A stretch of DNA of 64,000 nucleotides from an uncultured Bacilli bacterium (GTDB taxonomy: Bacteria; Bacillota_I; Bacilli_A; RF39; UBA660), in assembly GCA_934096705.1 (NCBI GenBank), contig CAKOMR010000001.1, positions 53,364 through 117,363 on the forward strand. Direction: 5' to 3'. Positions 10,276 to 54,340 of this stretch are shown in pieces. Made by a program: the position numbers and the translations under genes. The notes under the pieces are model-generated. The model was given only the letters and a program-made list of their open reading frames with translations, was not told where the DNA came from and searched no databases. Within the stretch, counting starts at the first letter, position 1; the number at the start of each line of letters is the position of its first letter.

Positions 10276-10701
10276 ATGAGAAAAGTAAAAAATGTAATTG
10301 GCGTAGCCTTTATTGAAGATGGAAAACTTTTAATTGTAAAAAGTGTCCGTAGTAGTAAAAGTAATGTTTGGACTTTGATTGGCGGGGGCGTTGAAAGTGG
10401 TGAATCAGAAGTTGAGGCTGCTATAAGAGAAGTTAGAGAAGAATTTCATAATGGCTTTGAAATTCAAGAAGAAGATTTAAAACCATTGATGTGTTTTAAA
10501 GAAAGTGCCGCAAGTGACCCAGAACTTGATATAATAATGACTATGTTTTTGTGTAGTAAAAAAATTGATAAAGCATTTTTTACTAATCAAGAAATATTAG
10601 CATATCATTTTTATAAAATAGGGGAAAGTAAGTACAATTTGTCTTCCGCAATAAGAGATCATTTTATTCCTTTTGCAGTTTCTGAAGGATTACTTTACTA
10701 A
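10276..10701 (+). CDS. NUDIX hydrolase
   Basis: Nudix box GGGVESGESEVEAAIREVREEF. Confidence 0.7.
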   Translation: MRKVKNVIGVAFIEDGKLLIVKSVRSSKSNVWTLIGGGVESGESEVEAAIREVREEFHNGFEIQEEDLKPLMCFKESAASDPELDIIMTMFLCSKKIDKAFFTNQEILAYHFYKIGESKYNLSSAIRDHFIPFAVSEGLLY

Positions 10702-24096: not shown

Positions 24097-26322
24097 ATGA
24101 AAAAGAAAATGTTATTTTTATTAACAGGAATAGTAATATGCTTAGCTATTTTATTCGGCTTTTATTACAATAATAAAACATTTTCCTTAAATAAAAGCAA
24201 TGCTAAAAAAAATGAAAAAATTGATAAACAAATGGCAATATTACTCAAAAGGTATGGAACTGATGAGTATTTAAATGTAGATTCAGATGAAGTTCCTAAG
24301 GGAAGCTATGTACTTAACAAAGAAAAATCAAATTGCGAAAATGGTGGTTCTGTTGTTAGTTATAATACTAAAACTGGTGCTATTGCTTTATCAATTGTTG
24401 GAAGTGATAAGTGTAATTTGTATTTTGATGAAATTGCTACTTTTTCAAGCATTTGTGCTGATGAAGACGATTTGTACACATGTTATAATAACAAGAAAGA
24501 TAAATTTACTGATATTGATTCTGTAAGTGGACCTTATGCTGGAATGTATAGATATTATGGTAAAGATGTTAATAATTATGTTAGCTTAGATGGAATGCTT
24601 TTTAGAATTATTGGCATTACTGATGAATCAAAAACGAATACAGATGTAGCTTTAAATCGAGGACAATTAAAATTAATAAAACCAGAAATAATTGATACTA
24701 CTTCTTGGTCAAATACTTTTGTTGATACGATTTTAAATAATACTAGTATTATACCATCATCCTGGACTAATAAAATAACTAAACAAAAATTTTATGATAA
24801 TGATTTGGATAATAGTGGTTATGCTCCTGGTTACACTGCTGAAATAAAACTTAGTTTAATGTATGATGATGACTTATATTATAGTGTGAAAGATGGTGTA
24901 AATTATTGCTATGGTTCAGGAACTTGTGCAAATTCATGGCTAAATTATGGTTATAACGAATGGACTGGAAGTAGAGCTGGATTTGATGGTATATGTTGGT
25001 ATATTCTTTCTATTACTGCAAATGGAAGTATTACTGATACAGAGGAAACGTCTTCTTTGGCAAGAAGAATAGTATTTTATTTAAAACCTAGTATAAAAAT
25101 TACAGGTGGTACTGGAGAAAAAGATAATCCTTATATACTTGGCGATAGTAATAAAACGTATGATTTAATTGTTCAGCCAGTTGCTCCTAAAATAGTTTCT
25201 GTAGTAGCAAATTATGATAGTACTATAACTGTTAAAGCTACAGATGAAAATGGCCTTTCAAGTTATTGTGTTAATCAAAGTAGTACAGATACAAGCTCAT
25301 GTACATGGATTAATAACACAAACACTACTTTTACAACATCTGTAATTCAAACTCCAGGAGATTATTATGTACATGTAAAAGATGTTGATAATTTAATTAC
25401 TCATTCATCCAAAATTACAATAGTTGGAGAAACATTATATCAAAGATTATTAAAAAATGTTCCGAATGGACTTAACACAACAGTTAATTATGGAATGTAT
25501 CGTTTTGTTGGTAATATTACAGATGACGATACATCAAATGCTGGAAAACTTGATAATTATATTTGCCTTGGAGCATATGATAAAGCAACATGCGTTTCAG
25601 ATCCAGATAAATATATGTATAGAATTATTGGCCTTGTAAAAGAAGATAATACGGGAACTAAACATGAAGAGGGAGAAATAAAAATAATTAAATATACTAA
25701 AGTCGGCAAATATCATAAATGGTCCGGTGGAACTATGAATAATGATGGTTTTATTAATCAAAATAATTATTTAGATTCATCTTTATGGACTGGACGTGTA
25801 CTAATTGGAACTAGTCCCTGTAATGCTACAACAGCTGACAATAGATGTACTATTACTTGGAGTCAAAGTACACTTAGATACTCAAGTGGTACTGATTATT
25901 CATTAAATGGTCCATCAAATTCATTTTTAAGTAGTATAAATTTTAAAGACAAAATAATTAGTGTTAAATGGCATAATCCTAAGTCGACTACTTATTCAGT
26001 AGATACTGAGTATTCTAGCACTAATATTGGAAACACTAACTATATAGGCCTACTATATGAGAATGATTATAAACAAGGAGGTTCTTGGCTGAATAAGTCT
26101 GGCTATACACTATATAATTATGGGCTATACTATAATGGTTCATACCATTTCAAAGTTGGAACTACTCCGTCTTCAGTGGATGATTATTATCTATGGCTTA
26201 AATCAGATGGAAAATGGGATACATATGGACATAATTATGTTAAACCGGTATTTTATTTGAATAGATATACTACATATAAATCAGGGAGTGGTACTTACGC
26301 TGATCCATTTATAATCAATTAA
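24097..26322 (+). CDS. Large secreted/surface protein (741 aa), paralog of the 730-aa and 487-aa surface proteins, with two C-type-lectin-like end modules
   Basis: N-terminal TM/signal and Y/N/T-rich sequence. The Cys-bracketed module NKEKSNCENGG...GSDKCNLYFDE is shared with the 42948 ORF. Modules ending RIVFYLKPSIKITGGTGEKDNPYIL and VKPVFYLNRYTTYKSGSGTYADPFIIN parallel the VR end of the 51446 ORF. Confidence 0.5.
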   Translation: MKKKMLFLLTGIVICLAILFGFYYNNKTFSLNKSNAKKNEKIDKQMAILLKRYGTDEYLNVDSDEVPKGSYVLNKEKSNCENGGSVVSYNTKTGAIALSIVGSDKCNLYFDEIATFSSICADEDDLYTCYNNKKDKFTDIDSVSGPYAGMYRYYGKDVNNYVSLDGMLFRIIGITDESKTNTDVALNRGQLKLIKPEIIDTTSWSNTFVDTILNNTSIIPSSWTNKITKQKFYDNDLDNSGYAPGYTAEIKLSLMYDDDLYYSVKDGVNYCYGSGTCANSWLNYGYNEWTGSRAGFDGICWYILSITANGSITDTEETSSLARRIVFYLKPSIKITGGTGEKDNPYILGDSNKTYDLIVQPVAPKIVSVVANYDSTITVKATDENGLSSYCVNQSSTDTSSCTWINNTNTTFTTSVIQTPGDYYVHVKDVDNLITHSSKITIVGETLYQRLLKNVPNGLNTTVNYGMYRFVGNITDDDTSNAGKLDNYICLGAYDKATCVSDPDKYMYRIIGLVKEDNTGTKHEEGEIKIIKYTKVGKYHKWSGGTMNNDGFINQNNYLDSSLWTGRVLIGTSPCNATTADNRCTITWSQSTLRYSSGTDYSLNGPSNSFLSSINFKDKIISVKWHNPKSTTYSVDTEYSSTNIGNTNYIGLLYENDYKQGGSWLNKSGYTLYNYGLYYNGSYHFKVGTTPSSVDDYYLWLKSDGKWDTYGHNYVKPVFYLNRYTTYKSGSGTYADPFIIN

Positions 26323-31138: not shown

Positions 31139-32974
31139 ATGTTAAAGGTACTTAATAAAAAATATGAAAAATTACATATTTTTAATTTACCATTTAATAC
31201 ATTAATAGAACATGTATTTTCAAACAATTTATACTTTCTTTTTGATGATGAAACATTTTGCAGATACATAGTTGAAAATTTAAAAAAAATAGACTCAAAG
31301 TATTTATTAAAAATACTTTCTATTATAAATATAACAAAATATATTAGAATGGTTGATTTAATAGAAATATTTTATTTACTTGATGATGAAGAAAAAATGG
31401 CTTTATTAAATATGCCACATATTCAAAAATTTTTCTTTACAAAACATTTTTTAGGATATAAAGCACTTGATTTAAAACTTAGTAGTTTAGATAGTTATAA
31501 AAGACTTCTTGAACTATTTCCTGATGAAGAAAAAAGAGTAATCATTTTAAGGGGAATTAAAGATGAAGAATTTGTTGTAAATTATATTAAATCTTGTAAC
31601 TTTACTGAAAGTCATTTGTTTGGTATAGTTTCAAATTTTTCAAAAGATGAAAATATTATTCCTTTTCTTAAATTTTTTACATCCAATCATAGATCGTCAC
31701 TTATAATAAAAATGCATTCTGAAGAATATAAAAAAGCTCATTTTAATGAAATGGTTTTATCTGATCAATTAAAATTTATATTTACCCAAAATGATGATGT
31801 TAAATGTGAGTTTATAGAAAATGGTTTTTATCCAGAATATATTATTCCCTCATTAACAGATTTAAATAAATTATTTACTTACTTCTTAAGTTTAAAAACT
31901 TACGATAAACAACTTATAGTTTTACAAAAAGTAAAAGATGATAATATAAAATTCGGACTTTTTCAAGTAATGAATTTAGAAAATCATTATATTGATGTTC
32001 TTTTATATTTATATAGTGTTGTAACTACTTTGGAAGTTAAAAAGAAAATTAGTGGTTTAATTGATGACAAAGGTATTATTGAAGCATTAAAAAGTAGTAA
32101 AAAAAGTCCTAAGGTTCTTACTGATGATATAGAACTTCAGTTTTCTCCATTAGTAGATGAAAAAATGACAATTGGAATTGAACTTGAATGTTCAAATGCA
32201 AATAATGATGCATATATATCTATAAAAAAACTTTTGTCTAAATGGGAAATGAAAGAAGAAATAACTGTTCCAAATGGAGTTGAAATAACTTCTCCAGTTT
32301 TAAATTATAACCCAAAATCTTTAAAAGAATTAAAATATATTTGTTTGTTTTTACAAAGAAATAATTTTTCTGTAAATGAAAATTGTGGTGGACATATTCA
32401 TATTGGTTTTGATTATTTTGATGATATAGTGCAACTACAAATGTTTTATTATTTATATGTTTATTGTGAAGACATTATATCATTAATGGTTAATAGATGT
32501 GGCTCTATTATAAGACCTTGTGCTTTAACTAATGCAAGACCGATAAAAAGCATGATGATAAAAAATTTTGGAAAATATATGTCTTTTACAAATTTATCCA
32601 TTGAAGGTTTTGTTGCAACAATGAAAGAACTTCAACATGATAAATACACATCTGTTAATTTACAAAATGCATTATCACCTCAGAAAAATACAATTGAATT
32701 TAGAATACCTAATGGTGAAATTGATTTTGATGAACTTAATTATAATATAATATTTATTACGAGACTAATGAGTTTTTCAAAAAAAATATTTTCTGTTCCA
32801 TTAGATAGGAATACTTTAAGAAAAATACTTTCACTAAGTGAAATTACACAAATGACCGATAGAAGAGACATATTACTAGATTTGATGTTTACAGAAACCG
32901 ATTTAAAAAATGTATATTTTGATAGATTTGAAAGTAATTTAGAATTAAATAGAGAAATAAATCCAAAAATATAA
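31139..32974 (+). CDS. Large protein with an N-terminal helical-repeat region and a C-terminal putative amidoligase (Amidoligase_2/GS-like) domain
   Basis: C-terminal TIGIELEC....GVEITSPVL.....L......L......V.ENCGGHIHIG ... NTIEFRIPNGEIDFDELNYNIIFITRL matches the amidoligase_2 pattern (GxExE ... CG.HVH ... TiEFR.f.gT.d). Confidence 0.5.
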   Translation: MLKVLNKKYEKLHIFNLPFNTLIEHVFSNNLYFLFDDETFCRYIVENLKKIDSKYLLKILSIINITKYIRMVDLIEIFYLLDDEEKMALLNMPHIQKFFFTKHFLGYKALDLKLSSLDSYKRLLELFPDEEKRVIILRGIKDEEFVVNYIKSCNFTESHLFGIVSNFSKDENIIPFLKFFTSNHRSSLIIKMHSEEYKKAHFNEMVLSDQLKFIFTQNDDVKCEFIENGFYPEYIIPSLTDLNKLFTYFLSLKTYDKQLIVLQKVKDDNIKFGLFQVMNLENHYIDVLLYLYSVVTTLEVKKKISGLIDDKGIIEALKSSKKSPKVLTDDIELQFSPLVDEKMTIGIELECSNANNDAYISIKKLLSKWEMKEEITVPNGVEITSPVLNYNPKSLKELKYICLFLQRNNFSVNENCGGHIHIGFDYFDDIVQLQMFYYLYVYCEDIISLMVNRCGSIIRPCALTNARPIKSMMIKNFGKYMSFTNLSIEGFVATMKELQHDKYTSVNLQNALSPQKNTIEFRIPNGEIDFDELNYNIIFITRLMSFSKKIFSVPLDRNTLRKILSLSEITQMTDRRDILLDLMFTETDLKNVYFDRFESNLELNREINPKI

Positions 32975-34258: not shown

Positions 34259-35815
34259 GTGATGAAAAAAACAAATAAAAAAACAAAAATAATTATAATA
34301 AGTATTTTAACTATTATTTTGATTATTGGAATTATAATAACAATCAAATCCAAAAAGAATTTGACTATAAATACAAATGTAAAAAAATTTGAGTCTGAAT
34401 ATAAAATGCTTGATAATAATTTACAATTATTAGATTTATATTTTTTAAAAGAGGAAAATAATGAAGAAAATATTGTTTATAGTCCAATTTCAATCAAATA
34501 TGCTTTAGCAATGCTTTCAGATGCGTCATTAGGTGATAGTAAAAGTCAAATTGATGCTGTTTTAGGTAAGTATAATTTCAAAAAATATGATAATAGTAAA
34601 AATGTTTCTTTTGCAAATGCCTTATTTATAAAAGATAGCTTTAAGCAGTATGTTAAAAATGATTATATAACTCAAATAAAAAATAAATATAATGGTGAAG
34701 TAATATATGATAGTTTTAATAGTCCAAATACTATTAATTCCTGGGTTTCTAATAAAACATTTAACTTAATAAATAATTTAATTGATGATGTTTCAAATAA
34801 TGATTTTATGTTAATAAATGCTCTTGCAATTGATATGAATTGGAACTATTTAATTCAACCAGTATTAACTGATAATAATAGTTCTGATTTTCAAAAGAAA
34901 ATATATGATAAAAAGCATTTTGATATATCAGCTTGGCATGTTGATTATCTTCATGAAGATTTAAATTCAATGTATATTAGTTCAATTGCTGCCGATGAAT
35001 ATCCTGTAATGAAATTCAATGATAAAGATGTAAGTTCTTTAAAGTTTGGTGCTTCAATTAATAATTATGATATTGTTAATGATTTAGGAAAAGAAAATAT
35101 TCGTAATGAAATCACTAAAGAATATGAGAAATGGGTTAGCGATGATTATTGTGAAGTTCATAAATATGAAGAAAGTAACACATTTGTCGATAAATTTATA
35201 AAAGAATTAGATTCAAATTATAAGGATATAGCAAGTTCAACAGATTTTAATTTTTATGTTGATGATAATGTTAAAGCTTTTGCCAAATACTTAAATGAAT
35301 ATAATGGTCTTAATTTAGAATATATTGGTATTATGCCTATAAATGAAAATTTAACTAGCTATATTAATACAGTAAAAGTTGAAGAAATAAAAAATATATT
35401 TAATAATCTAAAAGAAATAAAAATTGATAATTTTGAGAAGGGATATATTACACAAATCAAAGGAAATATTCCATTATTTAAGTTTGATTATGAACTTAAT
35501 CTCGAAAATGATTTAAAAAATATAGGTATTACGGACGTATTTAATGAAAATGCAAATCTTTCCAATTTAACAAATGAAAAAGCTTTAATTAATCCTGTTA
35601 TTCATAAAACTACGATTGAGTTTTCAAATGAGGGAATAAAAGCTTCTGCTGCAACTTCCATTGGAGGCTTTGGAGCAATAGATTGTAGTTTTGAACATTT
35701 ATATAAAGTACCTGTAAAAGTAATAGACTTGACTTTTGATAAACCTTTTATATTTTTTATCAGGAATATTAAAACAGGAGAAATTTGGTTTACTGGAGCT
35801 GTATATAGTCCATAA
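34259..35815 (+). CDS. Serpin-family serine protease inhibitor, membrane-anchored, with insertions
   Basis: N-terminal TM, then IVYSPISIKYALAMLSDASLGDSKSQI. Hinge/RCL NEGIKASAATSIGG. Canonical serpin C-terminus DKPFIFFIRNIKTGEIWFTGAVYSP. Confidence 0.8.
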   Translation: MMKKTNKKTKIIIISILTIILIIGIIITIKSKKNLTINTNVKKFESEYKMLDNNLQLLDLYFLKEENNEENIVYSPISIKYALAMLSDASLGDSKSQIDAVLGKYNFKKYDNSKNVSFANALFIKDSFKQYVKNDYITQIKNKYNGEVIYDSFNSPNTINSWVSNKTFNLINNLIDDVSNNDFMLINALAIDMNWNYLIQPVLTDNNSSDFQKKIYDKKHFDISAWHVDYLHEDLNSMYISSIAADEYPVMKFNDKDVSSLKFGASINNYDIVNDLGKENIRNEITKEYEKWVSDDYCEVHKYEESNTFVDKFIKELDSNYKDIASSTDFNFYVDDNVKAFAKYLNEYNGLNLEYIGIMPINENLTSYINTVKVEEIKNIFNNLKEIKIDNFEKGYITQIKGNIPLFKFDYELNLENDLKNIGITDVFNENANLSNLTNEKALINPVIHKTTIEFSNEGIKASAATSIGGFGAIDCSFEHLYKVPVKVIDLTFDKPFIFFIRNIKTGEIWFTGAVYSP

Positions 35816-51445: not shown

Positions 51446-53638
51446 ATGAATAAATTAGATAAAAAAAGTTTAATTATTGTTATTTCATCAGTATTATTAA
51501 TAATAGCTGTTTCGGCAGTATCATTTGCCTTTTTAGGAAGTTTTCAAAGAACGCTTAATAATGCAAATGTAAATATCGTAGCTCAAAATGTTAATAATAC
51601 ATATTTTAATGTAACAAATAATGTATCATTTTCTTTAGATGTAGACCCAACAAAAATGAATGAAACAAATAATGGAAATTATGTGGCAGAAAATACGGCA
51701 ATACTCGATGTATCAATAAATCCAGCAGCAGATGGTTTAAGTGTCAAATGTACTTATGATATCATATTTGAATATGATTCATCTTCGAATATATACGGGG
51801 TAAGTCCAACCCCAGTAACCACAGGAGCAAGTAAAGAGCTTACTTTGCAAGCAATTGGGCCAAACGGAACAAGTGATTATTTTGAAGAAAAGAACTTTAA
51901 TTTAACAAGTAGGAAAAAAACAATAGTAAGTGGGGCAGAGATAGTAAATTCAATAGCAGATATGCCAACGACTCATAGATGGAAATTTGTAAATAGATTT
52001 TATAATCTAAATTTAGATCAATCAGCTCTAGCAAATAAATCATTTAAAGGAAGATATTATGTAGCAAATGTATCATGTGATAGATATGAAGATAATACAA
52101 TATATTCATTAATAAAAAATAGATATAAAAATAATGATACATATGTAAAACTATATAGTGAGTCAGATGCCAGCACATATGCAAATCCAGTATATTATTT
52201 TAATGGAGCAGTAGAAGATAACAATGTTCTTTTTGCAGGCTTTTGTTGGAAGATAGTAAGAACTACTGAAACTGGTGGAGTAAAAATGGTATATAATGGT
52301 ACTTTAATTGATACACCTAGTTCAGTAACACCTTTAGAAGAATCACAATATGTAAATGTAACTAATGATGCAACATATCCATATACATTTGATAGTACCA
52401 ATAAGACATGGACAAGTACAAATCATGATAATGATAAAACAGGAACAATAACTTTTACAGTTTCTGAGCCTGGAGATTATTATTTAAACTATACAGTGTC
52501 ATCAGAAACATGTTGTGATAAAGCAGAATTTTTAAAGGGTACTAACTCCCTAGGAAAATTCGCCAATTCGGGAACAATTGCTCTTACCGGGCTTACAACA
52601 TCAGATGTTATTACTGTAAAATATTCGAAAGATGGTTCAGCATCATCCGGAAGTGATAATGTAATATTTAGCTTAGGAAAAGCAATTGGTGAAGTTAAAA
52701 AATCATGTAATAACAGCGGTACAGCTACACAACTGGCAAGTACAAAAGCATTTAATAGTTCTTCTTCACCGGCATATGTGGGATATATGTATAACACAGT
52801 TTATAAATATTCAAGTAAGAGTATGTCATCACAATCAAATATAGTATTTGGAAATTCATTTAATTATAATAGTAATAATGGTACTTATACATTAACTGGT
52901 ACAAAAACAATAGTAACTTGGTCAAGTGGCTATAATACAATCAATAGTAATCATTATACATGTTTTACTACAGGAACAACATGTACATCACTTTATTATG
53001 TATATTATACAAATTCAAGTACTGCATATTATATAACGCTTTCAAATGGTAAATCGGTAGACGATGCATTAAATGAAATGTTATATGCAGATGATGTAAA
53101 TAAAACTGATAGTACAATAAAAGCATATATAGACACATGGTATAAAGACAACATGACAAGTTATACTGATAAACTTGAAGACACAGTATTTTGTAATGAC
53201 AGGACAATGTATAACCAATCAGCAAATGGATGGAATCCAAATGGAGGAAGTACAACAGAAACATTACGATTTAAAAATTATAATACCAATTATAGCTTAG
53301 CGTGTACAAATGAAACAGATAGATTTAGTGTGAGCAATAATAAAGCAAAATTAACATACCCAGTTGGTCTACTATCCGCACCGGAGGTGTGGCTAGCATA
53401 TAGAAATGCCAATTATAGTTCATATTATTTGAATACCGGTAATATGTACTGGCTTGCTTCCCCTATCAGCTTCAACAACAACAACGCCAGCGGCAGGTAC
53501 GTGGCCACCGCGGGTAACATAAGCGGCAGCAACGTCAGCATCATCAGTATGGAGGGCGTGCGTCCGGCCGTTTCCTTGAAGCCTGGCACCGGGTATACAG
53601 GTGATGGGTCGTATACAAATCCGTTCGTAGTAGAATAG
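51446..53638 (+). CDS. Large surface protein (730 aa): SipW-type signal peptide, TasA/camelysin-like N-terminal domain, and a C-terminal C-type-lectin-like domain carrying a DGR-type variable region
   Basis: N-terminus ...AVSAVSFAFLGSF. Homology to the 33469 ORF. C-terminus WLASPISFNNNNASGRYVATAGNISGSNVSIISMEGVRPAVSLKPGTGYTGDGSYTNPFVVE. The 3' end is strongly GC-rich relative to the genome and is repeated downstream with A-specific differences. Confidence 0.6.
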   Translation: MNKLDKKSLIIVISSVLLIIAVSAVSFAFLGSFQRTLNNANVNIVAQNVNNTYFNVTNNVSFSLDVDPTKMNETNNGNYVAENTAILDVSINPAADGLSVKCTYDIIFEYDSSSNIYGVSPTPVTTGASKELTLQAIGPNGTSDYFEEKNFNLTSRKKTIVSGAEIVNSIADMPTTHRWKFVNRFYNLNLDQSALANKSFKGRYYVANVSCDRYEDNTIYSLIKNRYKNNDTYVKLYSESDASTYANPVYYFNGAVEDNNVLFAGFCWKIVRTTETGGVKMVYNGTLIDTPSSVTPLEESQYVNVTNDATYPYTFDSTNKTWTSTNHDNDKTGTITFTVSEPGDYYLNYTVSSETCCDKAEFLKGTNSLGKFANSGTIALTGLTTSDVITVKYSKDGSASSGSDNVIFSLGKAIGEVKKSCNNSGTATQLASTKAFNSSSSPAYVGYMYNTVYKYSSKSMSSQSNIVFGNSFNYNSNNGTYTLTGTKTIVTWSSGYNTINSNHYTCFTTGTTCTSLYYVYYTNSSTAYYITLSNGKSVDDALNEMLYADDVNKTDSTIKAYIDTWYKDNMTSYTDKLEDTVFCNDRTMYNQSANGWNPNGGSTTETLRFKNYNTNYSLACTNETDRFSVSNNKAKLTYPVGLLSAPEVWLAYRNANYSSYYLNTGNMYWLASPISFNNNNASGRYVATAGNISGSNVSIISMEGVRPAVSLKPGTGYTGDGSYTNPFVVE
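53450..53575 (+). repeat. DGR-like variable repeat (VR) at the 3' end of the 51446 ORF
   Basis: 126 nt homologous to 53799-53918. Over the first 30 aligned codons there are 13 mismatches, and 12 fall where the downstream copy has adenine. Confidence 0.65.
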
Positions 53639-53679
53639 TGGAGTGGTAAAGTAGGTGCCAACACTTTATACTAGAAAAA

Positions 53680-53703
53680 CACCGGGAAAACCCTTTCCCG
53701 GTG
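53680..53703. other. GC-rich perfect hairpin (10-bp stem caccgggaaa/tttcccggtg, 4-nt loop) 42 nt past the stop codon of the VR gene
   Basis: Seen directly in the sequence. On the plus strand it is not followed by a T run; on the minus strand it is followed by TTTTTCT. Confidence 0.5.
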
Positions 53704-53798
53704 CGGCTGAAAAAACAACACGTAATTACAAACTGAATTTGGATTAAACATAATTTATGTTTGATTTAGGATTATATCGTATATAAGTGGACGCTTTT

Positions 53799-53918
53799 TG
53801 GCTTGCTTCCCCTAACAACTTCAACAACAACAACGCCAACGGCAGGAACGTGAACACCACGGGTAACATGAACAACAACAACGTCAACAATGCGGGGAGC
53901 GCGCGTCCAGCCATTTTC
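53799..53918 (+). repeat. DGR-like template repeat (TR): AAC-codon-rich copy of the VR
   Basis: Within its first 30 in-frame codons, 15 are AAC, against 6 in the VR. It is non-coding in context, although the frame runs to gaa-taa at 53919-53924. Confidence 0.6.
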
Positions 53919-54045
53919 GAATAAATTATTTAATTATTATTATAATTAAATAATAAATAATTTAGCTGAAATATTTAATATTTACAAATTTATCGTTATT
54001 TGTGGACAATTCTGATAAATGATGTTAAAATATTTATGACATTTT

Positions 54046-54072
54046 AAGTGGGCCTGCAATCCCACTTTTATT
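54046..54072 (+). terminator. Rho-independent terminator between the TR region and rimP
   Basis: aagtggg-cctgcaat-cccactt hairpin followed by ttattatt. Confidence 0.5.
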
Positions 54073-54094
54073 ATTAATTAAGAAGGTGATATAT

Positions 54095-54340
54095 TTGGAT
54101 TTTAGTAATTTAATGGAAAAAATCAATATTGCAGTTAAGGATCTTGAAATATTTGCATGTGATATTAAATATAAAAAGAAAGGCAAATATAATTTTTTAG
54201 AGGTAACTTTAGATAAAGTTGGTGGCATTGATTTAGATGAAATTGTTAAAGCAACTCATATAATTAATGAAGTAGTTGATAAATATTGTGATATTGAAGA
54301 AAGCTATATATTAGATATATCAAGTAAAGAAAGAGGTTAG
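54095..54340 (+). CDS. rimP: Ribosome maturation factor RimP, N-terminal domain only (C-terminal domain absent)
   Basis: NFLEVTLDKVGGIDLDEIVKATHIINEVVDKY..IEESYILDISS parallels the RimP N-domain through the LEVSSPG region. It stops 5 nt before nusA. TTG at 54095 is spaced after AGAAGGTGA; the track start at GTG 54086 overlaps the RBS. Confidence 0.55.
   Translation: MDFSNLMEKINIAVKDLEIFACDIKYKKKGKYNFLEVTLDKVGGIDLDEIVKATHIINEVVDKYCDIEESYILDISSKERG

What the first reader, a model, noticed from the sequence alone, without database searches (positions are those of the whole stretch)
53450..53924. DGR-type hypermutation signature: the 3' end of the 730-aa surface-protein gene and a downstream AAC-rich copy differ almost only at adenines
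Seen in sequence. A 126-nt stretch at the gene's 3' end (53450-53575; WLASPISFNNNNASGRYVATAGNISGSNVSIISMEGVRPAVS) recurs 220 bp downstream as a 120-nt copy (53799-53918). Aligned in frame over the first 30 codons, there are 13 mismatches. Twelve sit where the downstream copy has A and the gene copy has T, G or C: atc/aac, agc/aac five times, tac/aac, gcc/aac, gcg/acg, ggc/aac. The one exception is ata/atg. The downstream copy has 15 AAC codons in 30, against 6 in the gene copy. Both copies are strongly GC-rich in a genome of about 27% GC. The 3'-most 30 nt diverge by non-A changes (gagggcgtgcgtccggcc versus ggggagcgcgcgtccagcc), which would fit an IMH / IMH* pair. Established knowledge: diversity-generating retroelements copy an AAC-rich template repeat (TR) through an error-prone reverse transcriptase into the C-terminal variable repeat (VR) of a C-type-lectin-fold target, mutating only TR adenines; the ..NN..G.Y....G.RPV.. 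ending of the encoded peptide is typical of such VRs. Inference: the in-gene copy is a VR and the downstream copy a TR. No RT, Avd or HRDC gene lies within 10 kb or anywhere in this window. The RT is therefore remote and acting in trans, or this is an orphaned or decayed DGR remnant that could still be mobilised by an RT elsewhere. Either case is unusual for a Firmicute chromosome wedged between sigG and rimP-nusA.
Basis: partly seen in the sequence, partly recalled or inferred. Interest (0 to 1): 0.93.

Follow-up and report, generated by a model that had tools for sequence, protein, structure and literature searches.

The report
Hypermutation cassette that lost its enzyme
The repeat pair is a real diversity-generating retroelement (DGR) template and variable region in a surface-protein gene of an uncultured gut Bacilli bacterium, but the cassette is cut off just after the template and has no accessory gene or reverse transcriptase, so it is most likely a recently orphaned, decaying remnant rather than an unusual working system.

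Summary
Window 53450-53540 and 53799-53889 are a 91-nt, 86% identical direct repeat. Twelve of 13 mismatches sit at adenines of the downstream copy (P=2.5e-5). Eight different variable repeats (VRs) from other genomes also differ from this template repeat (TR) mainly at its adenines: 143/310 A sites against 50/620 other sites. The DGR reading is therefore right.

Searching with the TR-encoded peptide found homologous complete cassettes in related gut bacteria. Their order is target(VR), conserved hairpin 1, hairpin 2, TR, conserved spacer, Avd-like gene, DGR-type reverse transcriptase (RT; IGxxxSQ, YMDD). The window matches this layout up to about 60 nt past the TR. The spacer is then degenerate and cut, and the rimP leader follows.

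No RT or Avd-like gene lies in the 64 kb window or 9 kb beyond it. Three near-identical strains carry identical VR and TR. VR and TR here differ at 5 non-adenine sites plus a 6-nt indel, against 0-1 in complete cassettes. The local TR also departs from the TR implied by the species' VRs.

Best reading: an orphaned DGR module, a known kind. Trans use by a remote RT is possible but less likely. Interest is moderate to low.

The parts
51446..53638 (+). Target gene: a 730-aa predicted surface protein with an N-terminal hydrophobic anchor. Its C-terminal module is weakly DUF6273-like.
   Evidence: ORF and translation. More than 1,649 homologues, several paralogues per genome. DUF6273 at E=1.4e-4, 22.2 bits, below the 23.5 cutoff; 7 of 26 family members match at E<=0.01. 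The last 289 nt are 50% GC against 29.5% for the rest of the gene.
53450..53572 (+). Variable repeat (VR), 123 nt. It encodes WLASPISFNNNNASGRYVATAGNISGSNVSIISMEGVRPAV and includes a 6-nt insertion (about 53535-53540) relative to the TR.
   Evidence: 16 mismatches at TR adenines and 5 elsewhere. The VR is identical in L001 and L027.
53680..53703 (.). Hairpin 1: CACCGGGAAA-ACCC-TTTCCCGGTG, a 10-bp stem with a conserved 4-nt loop, 42 nt after the stop codon. It is a candidate DGR target-site hairpin or cruciform.
   Evidence: The same element follows the target gene in L030, L031, L032, L036, L037 and L039. Covariation, counted over six sequences (window, L030, L031, L032, L036, L037): 6 of 10 pairs show compensatory changes and 98% of cells are paired. 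On the + strand it is not followed by a T-run.
53741..53773 (+). Hairpin 2 and conserved TR-upstream box: GGATTAAAC...GTTTGATTTAGGATT.
   Evidence: Aligned with L031, L032, L033, L036 and L037 immediately upstream of their TRs. It is part of the fold.
53799..53915 (+). Template repeat (TR), 117 nt, with 15 in-frame AAC codons in its first 30 codons. The frame reads WLASPNNFNNNNANGRNVNTTGNMNNNNVNNAGSARPAI and runs on to a stop at 53922-53924.
   Evidence: TR-encoded ORFs 80-87% identical to it sit next to Avd-like and RT genes elsewhere. The TR is identical in three strains.
53916..53979 (+). Degenerate, truncated remnant of the TR-downstream spacer (8% GC). The junction with the normal rimP upstream region lies at about 53980.
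   Evidence: The alignment with complete cassettes shows only TTATAAT.AA and AATTTAGCT retained. The conserved GTGAAACAGGTACAATTCTATGA box is absent from the whole window. From 53980 the sequence matches the TR-less allele L002.

Best explanation
This is the 5' two-thirds of a diversity-generating retroelement cassette. The full cassette type runs target gene (VR), hairpin 1, hairpin 2, TR, non-coding spacer, Avd-like gene, reverse transcriptase. In this strain lineage everything 3' of the TR has been lost: most of the spacer, the accessory gene and the RT.

Shown:
- The VR and its sister VRs in paralogous and orthologous genes differ from this TR mainly at TR adenines.
- Homologous complete cassettes exist in related bacteria.
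- The window lacks an RT, an Avd-like gene and the conserved spacer.

Inferred:
- The VR was written in the past by adenine-mutagenic retrohoming from this TR or from a near-identical master TR.
- The module can no longer diversify from its own TR. It is now a fossil that is starting to decay, and the target gene continues as an ordinary, recombining surface-protein gene.
For: (1) Adenine-specific VR/TR signature. In the window, 12 of 13 mismatches are at TR adenines (P=2.5e-5). Eight distinct VRs from other genomes and metagenomes show 143/310 A-site against 50/620 non-A mismatches, each with Fisher P between 6e-4 and 5e-8.

(2) Homologous complete cassettes. The TR peptide retrieves ORFs called on TRs. 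L032, L036, L037/L038 and L039 show target, hairpin 1, (hairpin 2) TR, spacer, a 115-122-aa accessory gene and an RT. The RT has PF00078 and phrog_1423 hits, IGAM(T/S)SQ and YMDD. Their VR/TR pairs have 16-22 A-site mismatches and 0-1 non-A mismatches.

(3) The window aligns with these cassettes through hairpin 1, hairpin 2 and the TR. It then keeps only a degenerate roughly 60-nt spacer stub before the rimP leader.

(4) No RT or Avd-like coding sequence occurs in the 64 kb window or 9 kb beyond it.

(5) Signs of decay. Non-A VR/TR mismatches are 5/78 plus a 6-nt indel here, against 2/231 in complete cassettes (P=0.012). At columns 97-98 the local TR has GG where the VRs vary and other TRs have AA. 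At column 104 it has C where 4 of 5 VRs have T.

(6) VR and TR are identical in the window, L001 and L027, which come from independent samples.

(7) A second, independent RT-less target-TR module (L031) is even more decayed, with 11/75 non-A mismatches.

(8) In the Bordetella prototype, the non-coding segment downstream of the TR binds Avd and is required for processive cDNA synthesis (PMC6182149).
Against: - The TR is still fully intact: 15 AAC codons and an open frame. Hairpins 1 and 2 are also intact, which would not be expected after long neutral decay in a 27% GC genome.
- The three strains with identical VR are almost clonal (5 scattered SNPs plus one 9-SNP patch in 22 kb), so their VR invariance is a weak test.
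- Only 73 kb of one 150-kb contig could be inspected.
- Many sister VRs have no TR nearby (L002, L003, L005-L009, L012). DGR action in trans has therefore occurred in this lineage.
- The spacer requirement is known only for the Bordetella phage element.
Confidence: 0.68

Rival explanations
1. The module is a working satellite. The TR is transcribed, possibly as a read-through 3' UTR of the target gene. An RT-Avd pair encoded elsewhere in the genome reverse-transcribes it in trans, so the VR is still being diversified at a low rate.
For: - TR, hairpin 1 and hairpin 2 are intact.
- There is no + strand terminator between the stop codon and the TR.
- Sister VRs lacking any nearby TR still match this TR, so trans action happened in this lineage.
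- Avd, TR and RT work in trans experimentally, and remote targets are documented (PMC5758913).
- A second RT-less target-TR module exists (L031).
- The window VR's first 91 nt have only one non-A mismatch.
Against: - The conserved spacer downstream of the TR is lost. In the prototype that segment is what restricts and enables cDNA synthesis (PMC6182149).
- The VR is identical in three samples.
- Non-A divergence and an indel separate VR from TR.
- The local TR disagrees with the TR inferred from the species' VRs.
- No RT or Avd lies within 53 kb upstream or 20 kb downstream.
- No second TR of this group was found in GTDB representative genomes or JGI metagenomes.
- Every related RT recovered carries an in-frame stop or a deletion.
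Confidence: 0.22
2. The VR now in this gene was not written at this locus. It was imported, together with the hairpins and the TR, by recombination or gene conversion from a complete cassette or a paralogue. The local TR was never used here. This is a variant of the remnant reading.
For: - The same sigG-rimP locus carries three very different alleles in one species: 730 aa with TR, 813 aa without TR, and 599 aa with an AT-rich C-terminus that is not VR-like.
- N-termini are mosaic among homologues.
- A 9-SNP conversion patch separates two near-clonal strains at 53106-53186.
- The 3' 289 nt, the hairpins and the TR are GC-rich against the AT-rich gene body.
Against: - There is no sequence homology at the 3' junction that would explain the end point.
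- The evidence cannot distinguish this from in-situ deletion of spacer, avd and RT.
- The first 91 nt of the VR fit the local TR very well.
Confidence: 0.3
3. This is not a DGR at all. It is a plain duplication of the gene's 3' end, and the non-coding copy drifted by AT-biased mutation (G to A), which mimics an adenine-specific pattern.
For: 12 of the 16 A-site differences are A in the downstream copy against G in the gene. That is the direction expected for GC-to-AT drift in a 27% GC genome.
Against: - There is no matching C-to-T excess: 0 in the first 91 nt.
- A/T and A/C differences also occur.
- The A sites fall on the first two bases of in-frame AAC codons.
- Eight independent VRs vary at the same TR adenines with different bases.
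- Homologous TRs sit next to Avd-like and DGR-type RT genes, with pristine A-only differences.
Confidence: 0.02

Closest known systems
Bordetella phage BPP-1 DGR (mtd VR, avd, TR, spacer, brt), the prototype
   Same: - A TR/VR pair whose differences lie at TR adenines.
- The VR sits at the C-terminal end of a ligand-binding surface protein.
- AAC-rich TR codons.
- A GC-rich 8-10-bp hairpin with a 4-nt sequence-conserved loop downstream of the VR (PMC3240598).
- A conserved non-coding segment after the TR in the clade's complete cassettes (against PMC6182149).
   Different: - The window has no avd, no RT and no intact spacer.
- The clade's gene order is target-TR-avd-RT, not target-avd-TR-RT.
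- The hairpin loop is ACCC rather than GRNA. The hairpin lies about 105 nt from the VR end rather than 4-34 bp.
- No IMH/IMH* pair is evident.
- The accessory protein has no detectable similarity to Avd families.
DGRs with DUF6273 (C-type-lectin-like) targets in gut Firmicute phages and prophages (tentaclins, PMC10743442; Faecalibacterium prophages, PMC11792537)
   Same: The VR maps to the C-terminal end of a DUF6273-like module. The habitat is the gut Firmicutes.
   Different: - The DUF6273 match here is below Pfam's threshold (22.2 against 23.5 bits).
- The element is chromosomal, between housekeeping genes, with no phage context.
- It has no RT.
Chromosomal DGRs with multiple or remote targets (survey of Wu et al. 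2018, PMC5758913)
   Same: One TR sequence accounts for VRs in several dispersed paralogous genes. Trans action on remote VRs is an established DGR property.
   Different: In the described cases the TR stays next to the RT and it is the targets that are remote. Here the TR sits with a target and the RT is missing.
Complete sister cassettes found here: L032 (GCA_016295205.1), L037/L038, L036, L039
   Same: They share hairpin 1, hairpin 2 and the TR (80-87% peptide identity), as well as the target family and the VR frame.
   Different: They keep the spacer, an Avd-like gene and an RT of about 500 codons. Their VR/TR pairs show 0-1 non-adenine mismatches, against 5 plus an indel here.

Membership tests
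Diversity-generating retroelement (DGR) | A TR/VR pair of about 100-150 nt whose mismatches are nearly all at TR adenines | tested here: met
   12 of 13 mismatches over 91 nt (P=2.5e-5). 16 A-site against 5 non-A mismatches over 117 nt (P=1.1e-5). Eight VRs together: 143/310 against 50/620.
Diversity-generating retroelement (DGR) | A DGR-clade reverse transcriptase (IGxxxSQ, YxDD) encoded next to the TR | tested here: not met
   No PF00078 hit in any window ORF of 200 aa or more. No motif context. No tblastn hit with the clade's RTs in the window or 9 kb beyond. The feature is met only in homologous loci L036, L037 and L039.
Diversity-generating retroelement (DGR) | An accessory protein (Avd or equivalent) in the cassette | tested here: not met
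   tblastn with the three Avd-like proteins of sister cassettes finds nothing in the window. Those proteins themselves match no Avd family, so 'Avd-like' rests only on their size and position.
Diversity-generating retroelement (DGR) | A non-coding RNA segment flanking the TR that is needed for cDNA synthesis (the spacer) | tested here: not met
   The spacer conserved in L032, L033, L036, L037 and L039 is reduced to a degenerate stub. Its GTGAAACAGGTACAATTCTATGA box is absent from the window. Its function in this clade is inferred from PMC6182149.
Diversity-generating retroelement (DGR) | A GC-rich hairpin or cruciform downstream of the VR (target recognition) | tested here: inconclusive
   A 10-bp hairpin with a conserved 4-nt loop and 6 of 10 covarying pairs is present. 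However, the loop is ACCC rather than GRNA, and the hairpin lies about 105 nt from the VR against 4-34 bp in the described cases. Several sister VR genes lack it.
Diversity-generating retroelement (DGR) | The VR varies between strains or within populations while the TR is invariant (evidence of activity) | tested here: not met
   VR and TR are both identical in the window, L001 and L027. These strains are nearly clonal, so the test is weak. Another VR of the family is identical in five metagenome contigs that differ by 0.4-5% elsewhere. No read-level data were available.
C-type-lectin-fold / DUF6273 DGR target proteins | The VR lies in the C-terminal part of a CLec-fold (DUF6273) domain | tested here: inconclusive

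The most novel reading that the evidence does not exclude
RT-less 'target plus TR' modules are not debris. They would be functional satellites of a distributed DGR. Each would carry its own TR, transcribed with the target gene, and would be served in trans by a single RT/Avd-like unit elsewhere. The output of that unit would be throttled by the in-frame stop codon seen in the same RT linker in all three full-length RT genes (four loci) recovered for this clade. Such modules occur at least twice independently: this window and L031.
Probability: 0.1. Interest if true: 0.75.

Novelty: new member of a known kind. Interest (0 to 1): 0.4.

Why it matters
RT-anchored DGR finders miss TR/VR pairs that have lost their RT, so remnants like this one go uncounted. 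This locus gives a dated snapshot of how a DGR dies. The RT and accessory gene are gone and the TR is still pristine, while the VR is frozen and beginning to drift.

It also identifies a large, multi-copy, DGR-shaped surface-protein family in an uncultured human-gut Bacilli lineage, along with conserved non-coding elements (two hairpins and a spacer) of its DGR clade.

For annotation, the practical message is that the gene's C-terminal hypervariability between paralogues has a retroelement origin, even where no RT is nearby.

Tried and rejected
- An exact TR 32-mer search in GTDB representative genomes and IMG/VR gave 0 hits.
- A degenerate VR/TR 5' pattern found only VRs in GTDB genomes and JGI metagenomes, plus chance hits in Treponema and Schlesneria, and no second TR. 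It found nothing in IMG/VR.
- Phage and plasmid BLAST of 53430-53990, an IMG/VR search for hairpin 1, and a protein-pattern scan of IMG/VR with the C-terminal domain all found nothing. A phage or plasmid origin is therefore unsupported.
- Rfam found no family in 53300-54150.
- Looking for an RT next to paralogues failed. L002, L003 and L030 have none within 10 kb.
- An AAC-rich stretch in L003 (19735-19979) is just an Asn/Lys-rich linker of another protein.
- A PDB sequence search with the C-terminal profile found nothing.
- Two AlphaFold runs gave low-confidence models, and the fold searches were not significant.
- The IMH/IMH* idea was rejected because intact sister cassettes have identical GC-rich 3' ends in VR and TR.
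- The reading of hairpin 1 as the target gene's terminator was rejected for the + strand, because no T-run follows it. It looks like a terminator only on the minus strand.
Full report
**1. The observation**

The window holds a direct repeat of 91 nt at 53450-53540 and 53799-53889, 86% identical with spacing 349. blastn gives E=4.6e-25. I counted 13 mismatches. Twelve have A in the downstream copy (9 against G, 2 against T, 1 against C). One, at 53521, has A in the gene copy. With 35 adenines among the 91 downstream positions, 12 or more of 13 has P=2.5e-5.

So is the GC contrast: TR 0.53 and the gene's last 289 nt 0.50, against 0.267 for the window.

Beyond 53540 the gene copy has six extra bases. 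They read as a tandem duplication of the TR's TCAACA, with each unit mutated at a different adenine. With that gap, homology continues to 53572 and 53915. Over 117 aligned columns there are 16 A-site and 5 non-A mismatches.

**2. Context**

The window comes from a human-gut metagenome contig, Hadza sample ERZ4561110, 149,907 bp. The organism is an uncultured, sporulation-capable 'Bacilli bacterium'; the taxon name comes from the titles of the GTDB MAGs.

The gene (51446-53638, 730 aa) lies between a sigma-70-family factor plus a DUF5698 gene and rimP-nusA. It has no Pfam family at full length. It does have more than 1,649 homologues, with several paralogues per genome. Their C-termini share the frame WLASP-x-GVRP-VSLKPGT-SGDGSYTNPFVVE, with a hypervariable stretch in between.

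**3. The TR explains many VRs**

I took VR DNA from an orthologous allele (L002), from paralogues (L003, L005-L007, L009) and from metagenome contigs (L012 and others). I aligned each to the window's TR. Every one differs from it preferentially at TR adenines. The total is 143 of 310 A sites against 50 of 620 other sites, with individual Fisher P values from 6e-4 to 5e-8. Simple drift cannot produce this result. It shows that this TR, or a near-identical one, templated the whole VR group.

No second TR of this group was found. Neither an exact TR 32-mer nor a degenerate VR/TR pattern found one in GTDB representative genomes. The degenerate pattern found none in JGI metagenomes or IMG/VR, and the exact 32-mer found none in IMG/VR.

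**4. No RT here**

- No window ORF of 200 aa or more has an RVT_1 hit.
- No YxDD/IGxxxSQ context exists.
- The contig shows no RT for a further 9 kb downstream (L029).
- tblastn with the clade's own RT and Avd-like proteins is negative.

**5. Complete sister cassettes**

A protein search with the 45-aa peptide encoded by the TR frame returned eight short ORFs that gene callers had placed on TRs elsewhere. Some are 80-87% identical to it and some begin with the same MFDLGLY upstream peptide. Their contexts, together with those of RT fragments found from them, reveal the full cassette.

- L032, L036, L037/L038 and L039 show this order: target gene with VR; a 10-bp hairpin with loop ACCC (hairpin 1); a second conserved hairpin box (hairpin 2) in L032, L036 and L037, with only a divergent counterpart in L039; the TR; a conserved non-coding spacer (TTATGGTGAAATTT...GTGAAACAGGTACAATTCTATGA...); a 115-122-aa accessory gene; and an RT of about 500 codons.
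- The RT has PF00078 and phrog_1423 hits, IGAM(T/S)SQ and Y(V/I)RYMDD.
- In these cassettes VR and TR differ at 16-22 adenines and at only 0-1 other positions.

They are canonical DGRs, with the order target-TR-accessory-RT.

**6. What the window is**

In a multiple alignment the window matches these cassettes through hairpin 1 (53680-53703), hairpin 2 (53741-53773) and the TR (53799-53915). After that it keeps only a degenerate, 8% GC stub of the spacer. From about 53980 it continues as the normal rimP upstream region found in TR-less alleles. The conserved spacer box is absent from the whole window.

At the same chromosomal locus other strains carry different alleles. L002 has an 813-aa allele whose VR is collinear with this TR. 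It has no hairpins or TR and an ordinary terminator. L028 has a 599-aa allele with an AT-rich C-terminus that is not VR-like.

The module is therefore a cassette truncated after the TR. It arose either by in-situ deletion or by import of a truncated piece. I cannot tell which.

**7. Active or fossil?**

Evidence for a fossil:

- (a) In the Bordetella prototype, the RNA segment downstream of the TR binds Avd and is what permits processive cDNA synthesis (PMC6182149). That segment is lost here. Extending the requirement to this clade is an inference.
- (b) Non-adenine VR/TR mismatches are 5/78 plus an indel here, and 11/75 in a second, independent RT-less module (L031: target, hairpins, TR, argS). 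In complete cassettes they are 2/231 (P=0.012 and 5e-6).
- (c) Column by column, the local TR has GG at positions 97-98, where the species' VRs vary and other TRs have AA. It has C at position 104, where 4 of 5 VRs have T. The local TR is therefore not exactly the template that wrote these VRs.
- (d) VR and TR are identical in the window, L001 and L027, which come from different samples. These strains are nearly clonal, so this is weak evidence.
- (e) Another VR of the family is identical in five contigs that differ by 0.4-5% elsewhere.

Evidence against a fossil:

- The TR and both hairpins are intact.
- The first 91 nt of the VR fit the TR almost perfectly.
- Trans action clearly occurred in this lineage, because many VR genes have no TR nearby.
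- I could inspect only 73 kb of one contig.

I put the orphaned-remnant reading at about 0.68 and continued trans use at about 0.22. A non-DGR duplication with AT drift is effectively excluded.

**8.

The proposed IMH/IMH* pair is not supported. Intact sister cassettes have identical GC-rich 3' ends in VR and TR. Some sister VRs carry the TR version of that stretch.

Hairpin 1 is a better candidate for a target-site element. Across the six lineages counted it has 98% pairing, and 6 of 10 pairs show compensatory changes around an invariant ACCC loop; the same hairpin is also present in L039. It resembles the GC-rich stem and 4-nt-loop hairpin required for BPP-1 homing. It differs in loop consensus (GRNA) and in distance (about 105 nt against 4-34 bp) (PMC3240598). 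Its role is inferred, not tested.

**9. Comparison and novelty**

This is a DGR by origin. It is a new member of a known kind, but an incomplete one. It meets the TR/VR criterion and fails the RT, accessory-gene and spacer criteria. Remote targets are well known (PMC5758913). A TR left beside a target without its RT is less often described, partly because DGR finders start from the RT. It is what cassette erosion would be expected to leave.

Interest is moderate to low for the finding itself (0.4). The side observations on the clade deserve a separate look: recurrent RT-less modules, single in-frame stops clustered in one RT linker, and the conserved hairpins.

Noticed in passing
L037 nt 1503-1505 (also L038); L039 about nt 2399-2401; L036 nt 10412-10414: All three full-length RT genes recovered for this DGR clade (four loci, L037 and L038 sharing the same one) are interrupted by exactly one in-frame stop: TAA at codon 122, TGA at codon 124 and TAA at codon 138. 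All three fall in the same roughly 17-codon linker between RT motifs 2a and 3, and the remaining roughly 500 codons are intact. All 40 database hits to the RT N-terminus are 175 aa or shorter. Chance clustering is about 1e-3. This could be programmed read-through, an on/off switch, a split RT or convergent inactivation.
   Followed up: partly
L031 1650-2550 (JGI 3300028591, contig Ga0247611_10003175): A second, independent RT-less module runs target gene, hairpin 1, hairpin 2, TR (with a duplicated copy of the gene's 3' end), then directly the T-box leader and argS. Its VR/TR pair is more decayed: 16 A-site and 11 non-A mismatches.
   Followed up: partly
L033/L034/L035 (Logan SRR25571510 and others), nt 300-1576: A TR, spacer, Avd-like (109 aa) and RT unit has no adjacent target gene. 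Its RT is a 184-aa remnant with an internal deletion between two SKY(Y/F) motifs. Its TR matches a different VR subgroup (the ...SGW... type, for example P0033).
   Followed up: partly
window 53680-53703; L030 about 10288-10313; L031, L032, L036, L037, L039: A conserved hairpin (10-bp stem, invariant loop ACCC flanked by AAA/TTT) lies about 40 nt after the stop codon of target genes. It is also present where no TR follows (L030). It is absent after many other VR-bearing paralogues, which end with ordinary AT-rich terminators.
   Followed up: yes
window 53106-53186: Nine of the 14 differences between the near-identical strains L001 and L027 over 22 kb cluster in 81 nt inside the target gene, upstream of the VR. 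This looks like a gene-conversion patch from a paralogue.
   Followed up: no
L036 11520-17181; L037 2623-7634: In two complete cassettes the RT is followed by a cluster encoding a Flg_new/CLIPPER-domain protein, two S26 signal-peptidase-like proteins, small unknown proteins and (seen only in L036, the L037 contig ending earlier) a sortase, possibly a surface-fibre assembly operon. The RT's C-terminus has a weak MutS_I-like match.
   Followed up: no
window 24097-26322: A 741-aa ORF with no Pfam hit shares only the extreme C-terminal tail (VKPVFYL...GSGTYADPFII) with the target family. It may be a distant relative that is not diversified.
   Followed up: no
window 54086-54340: The rimP gene is only 81-84 aa and has the RimP_N domain alone. 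The same holds in all related strains.
   Followed up: no
window 34259-35815: A 518-aa bacterial serpin (PF00079, E=7e-45). An amidoligase_2-domain protein lies nearby at 31139-32974.
   Followed up: no
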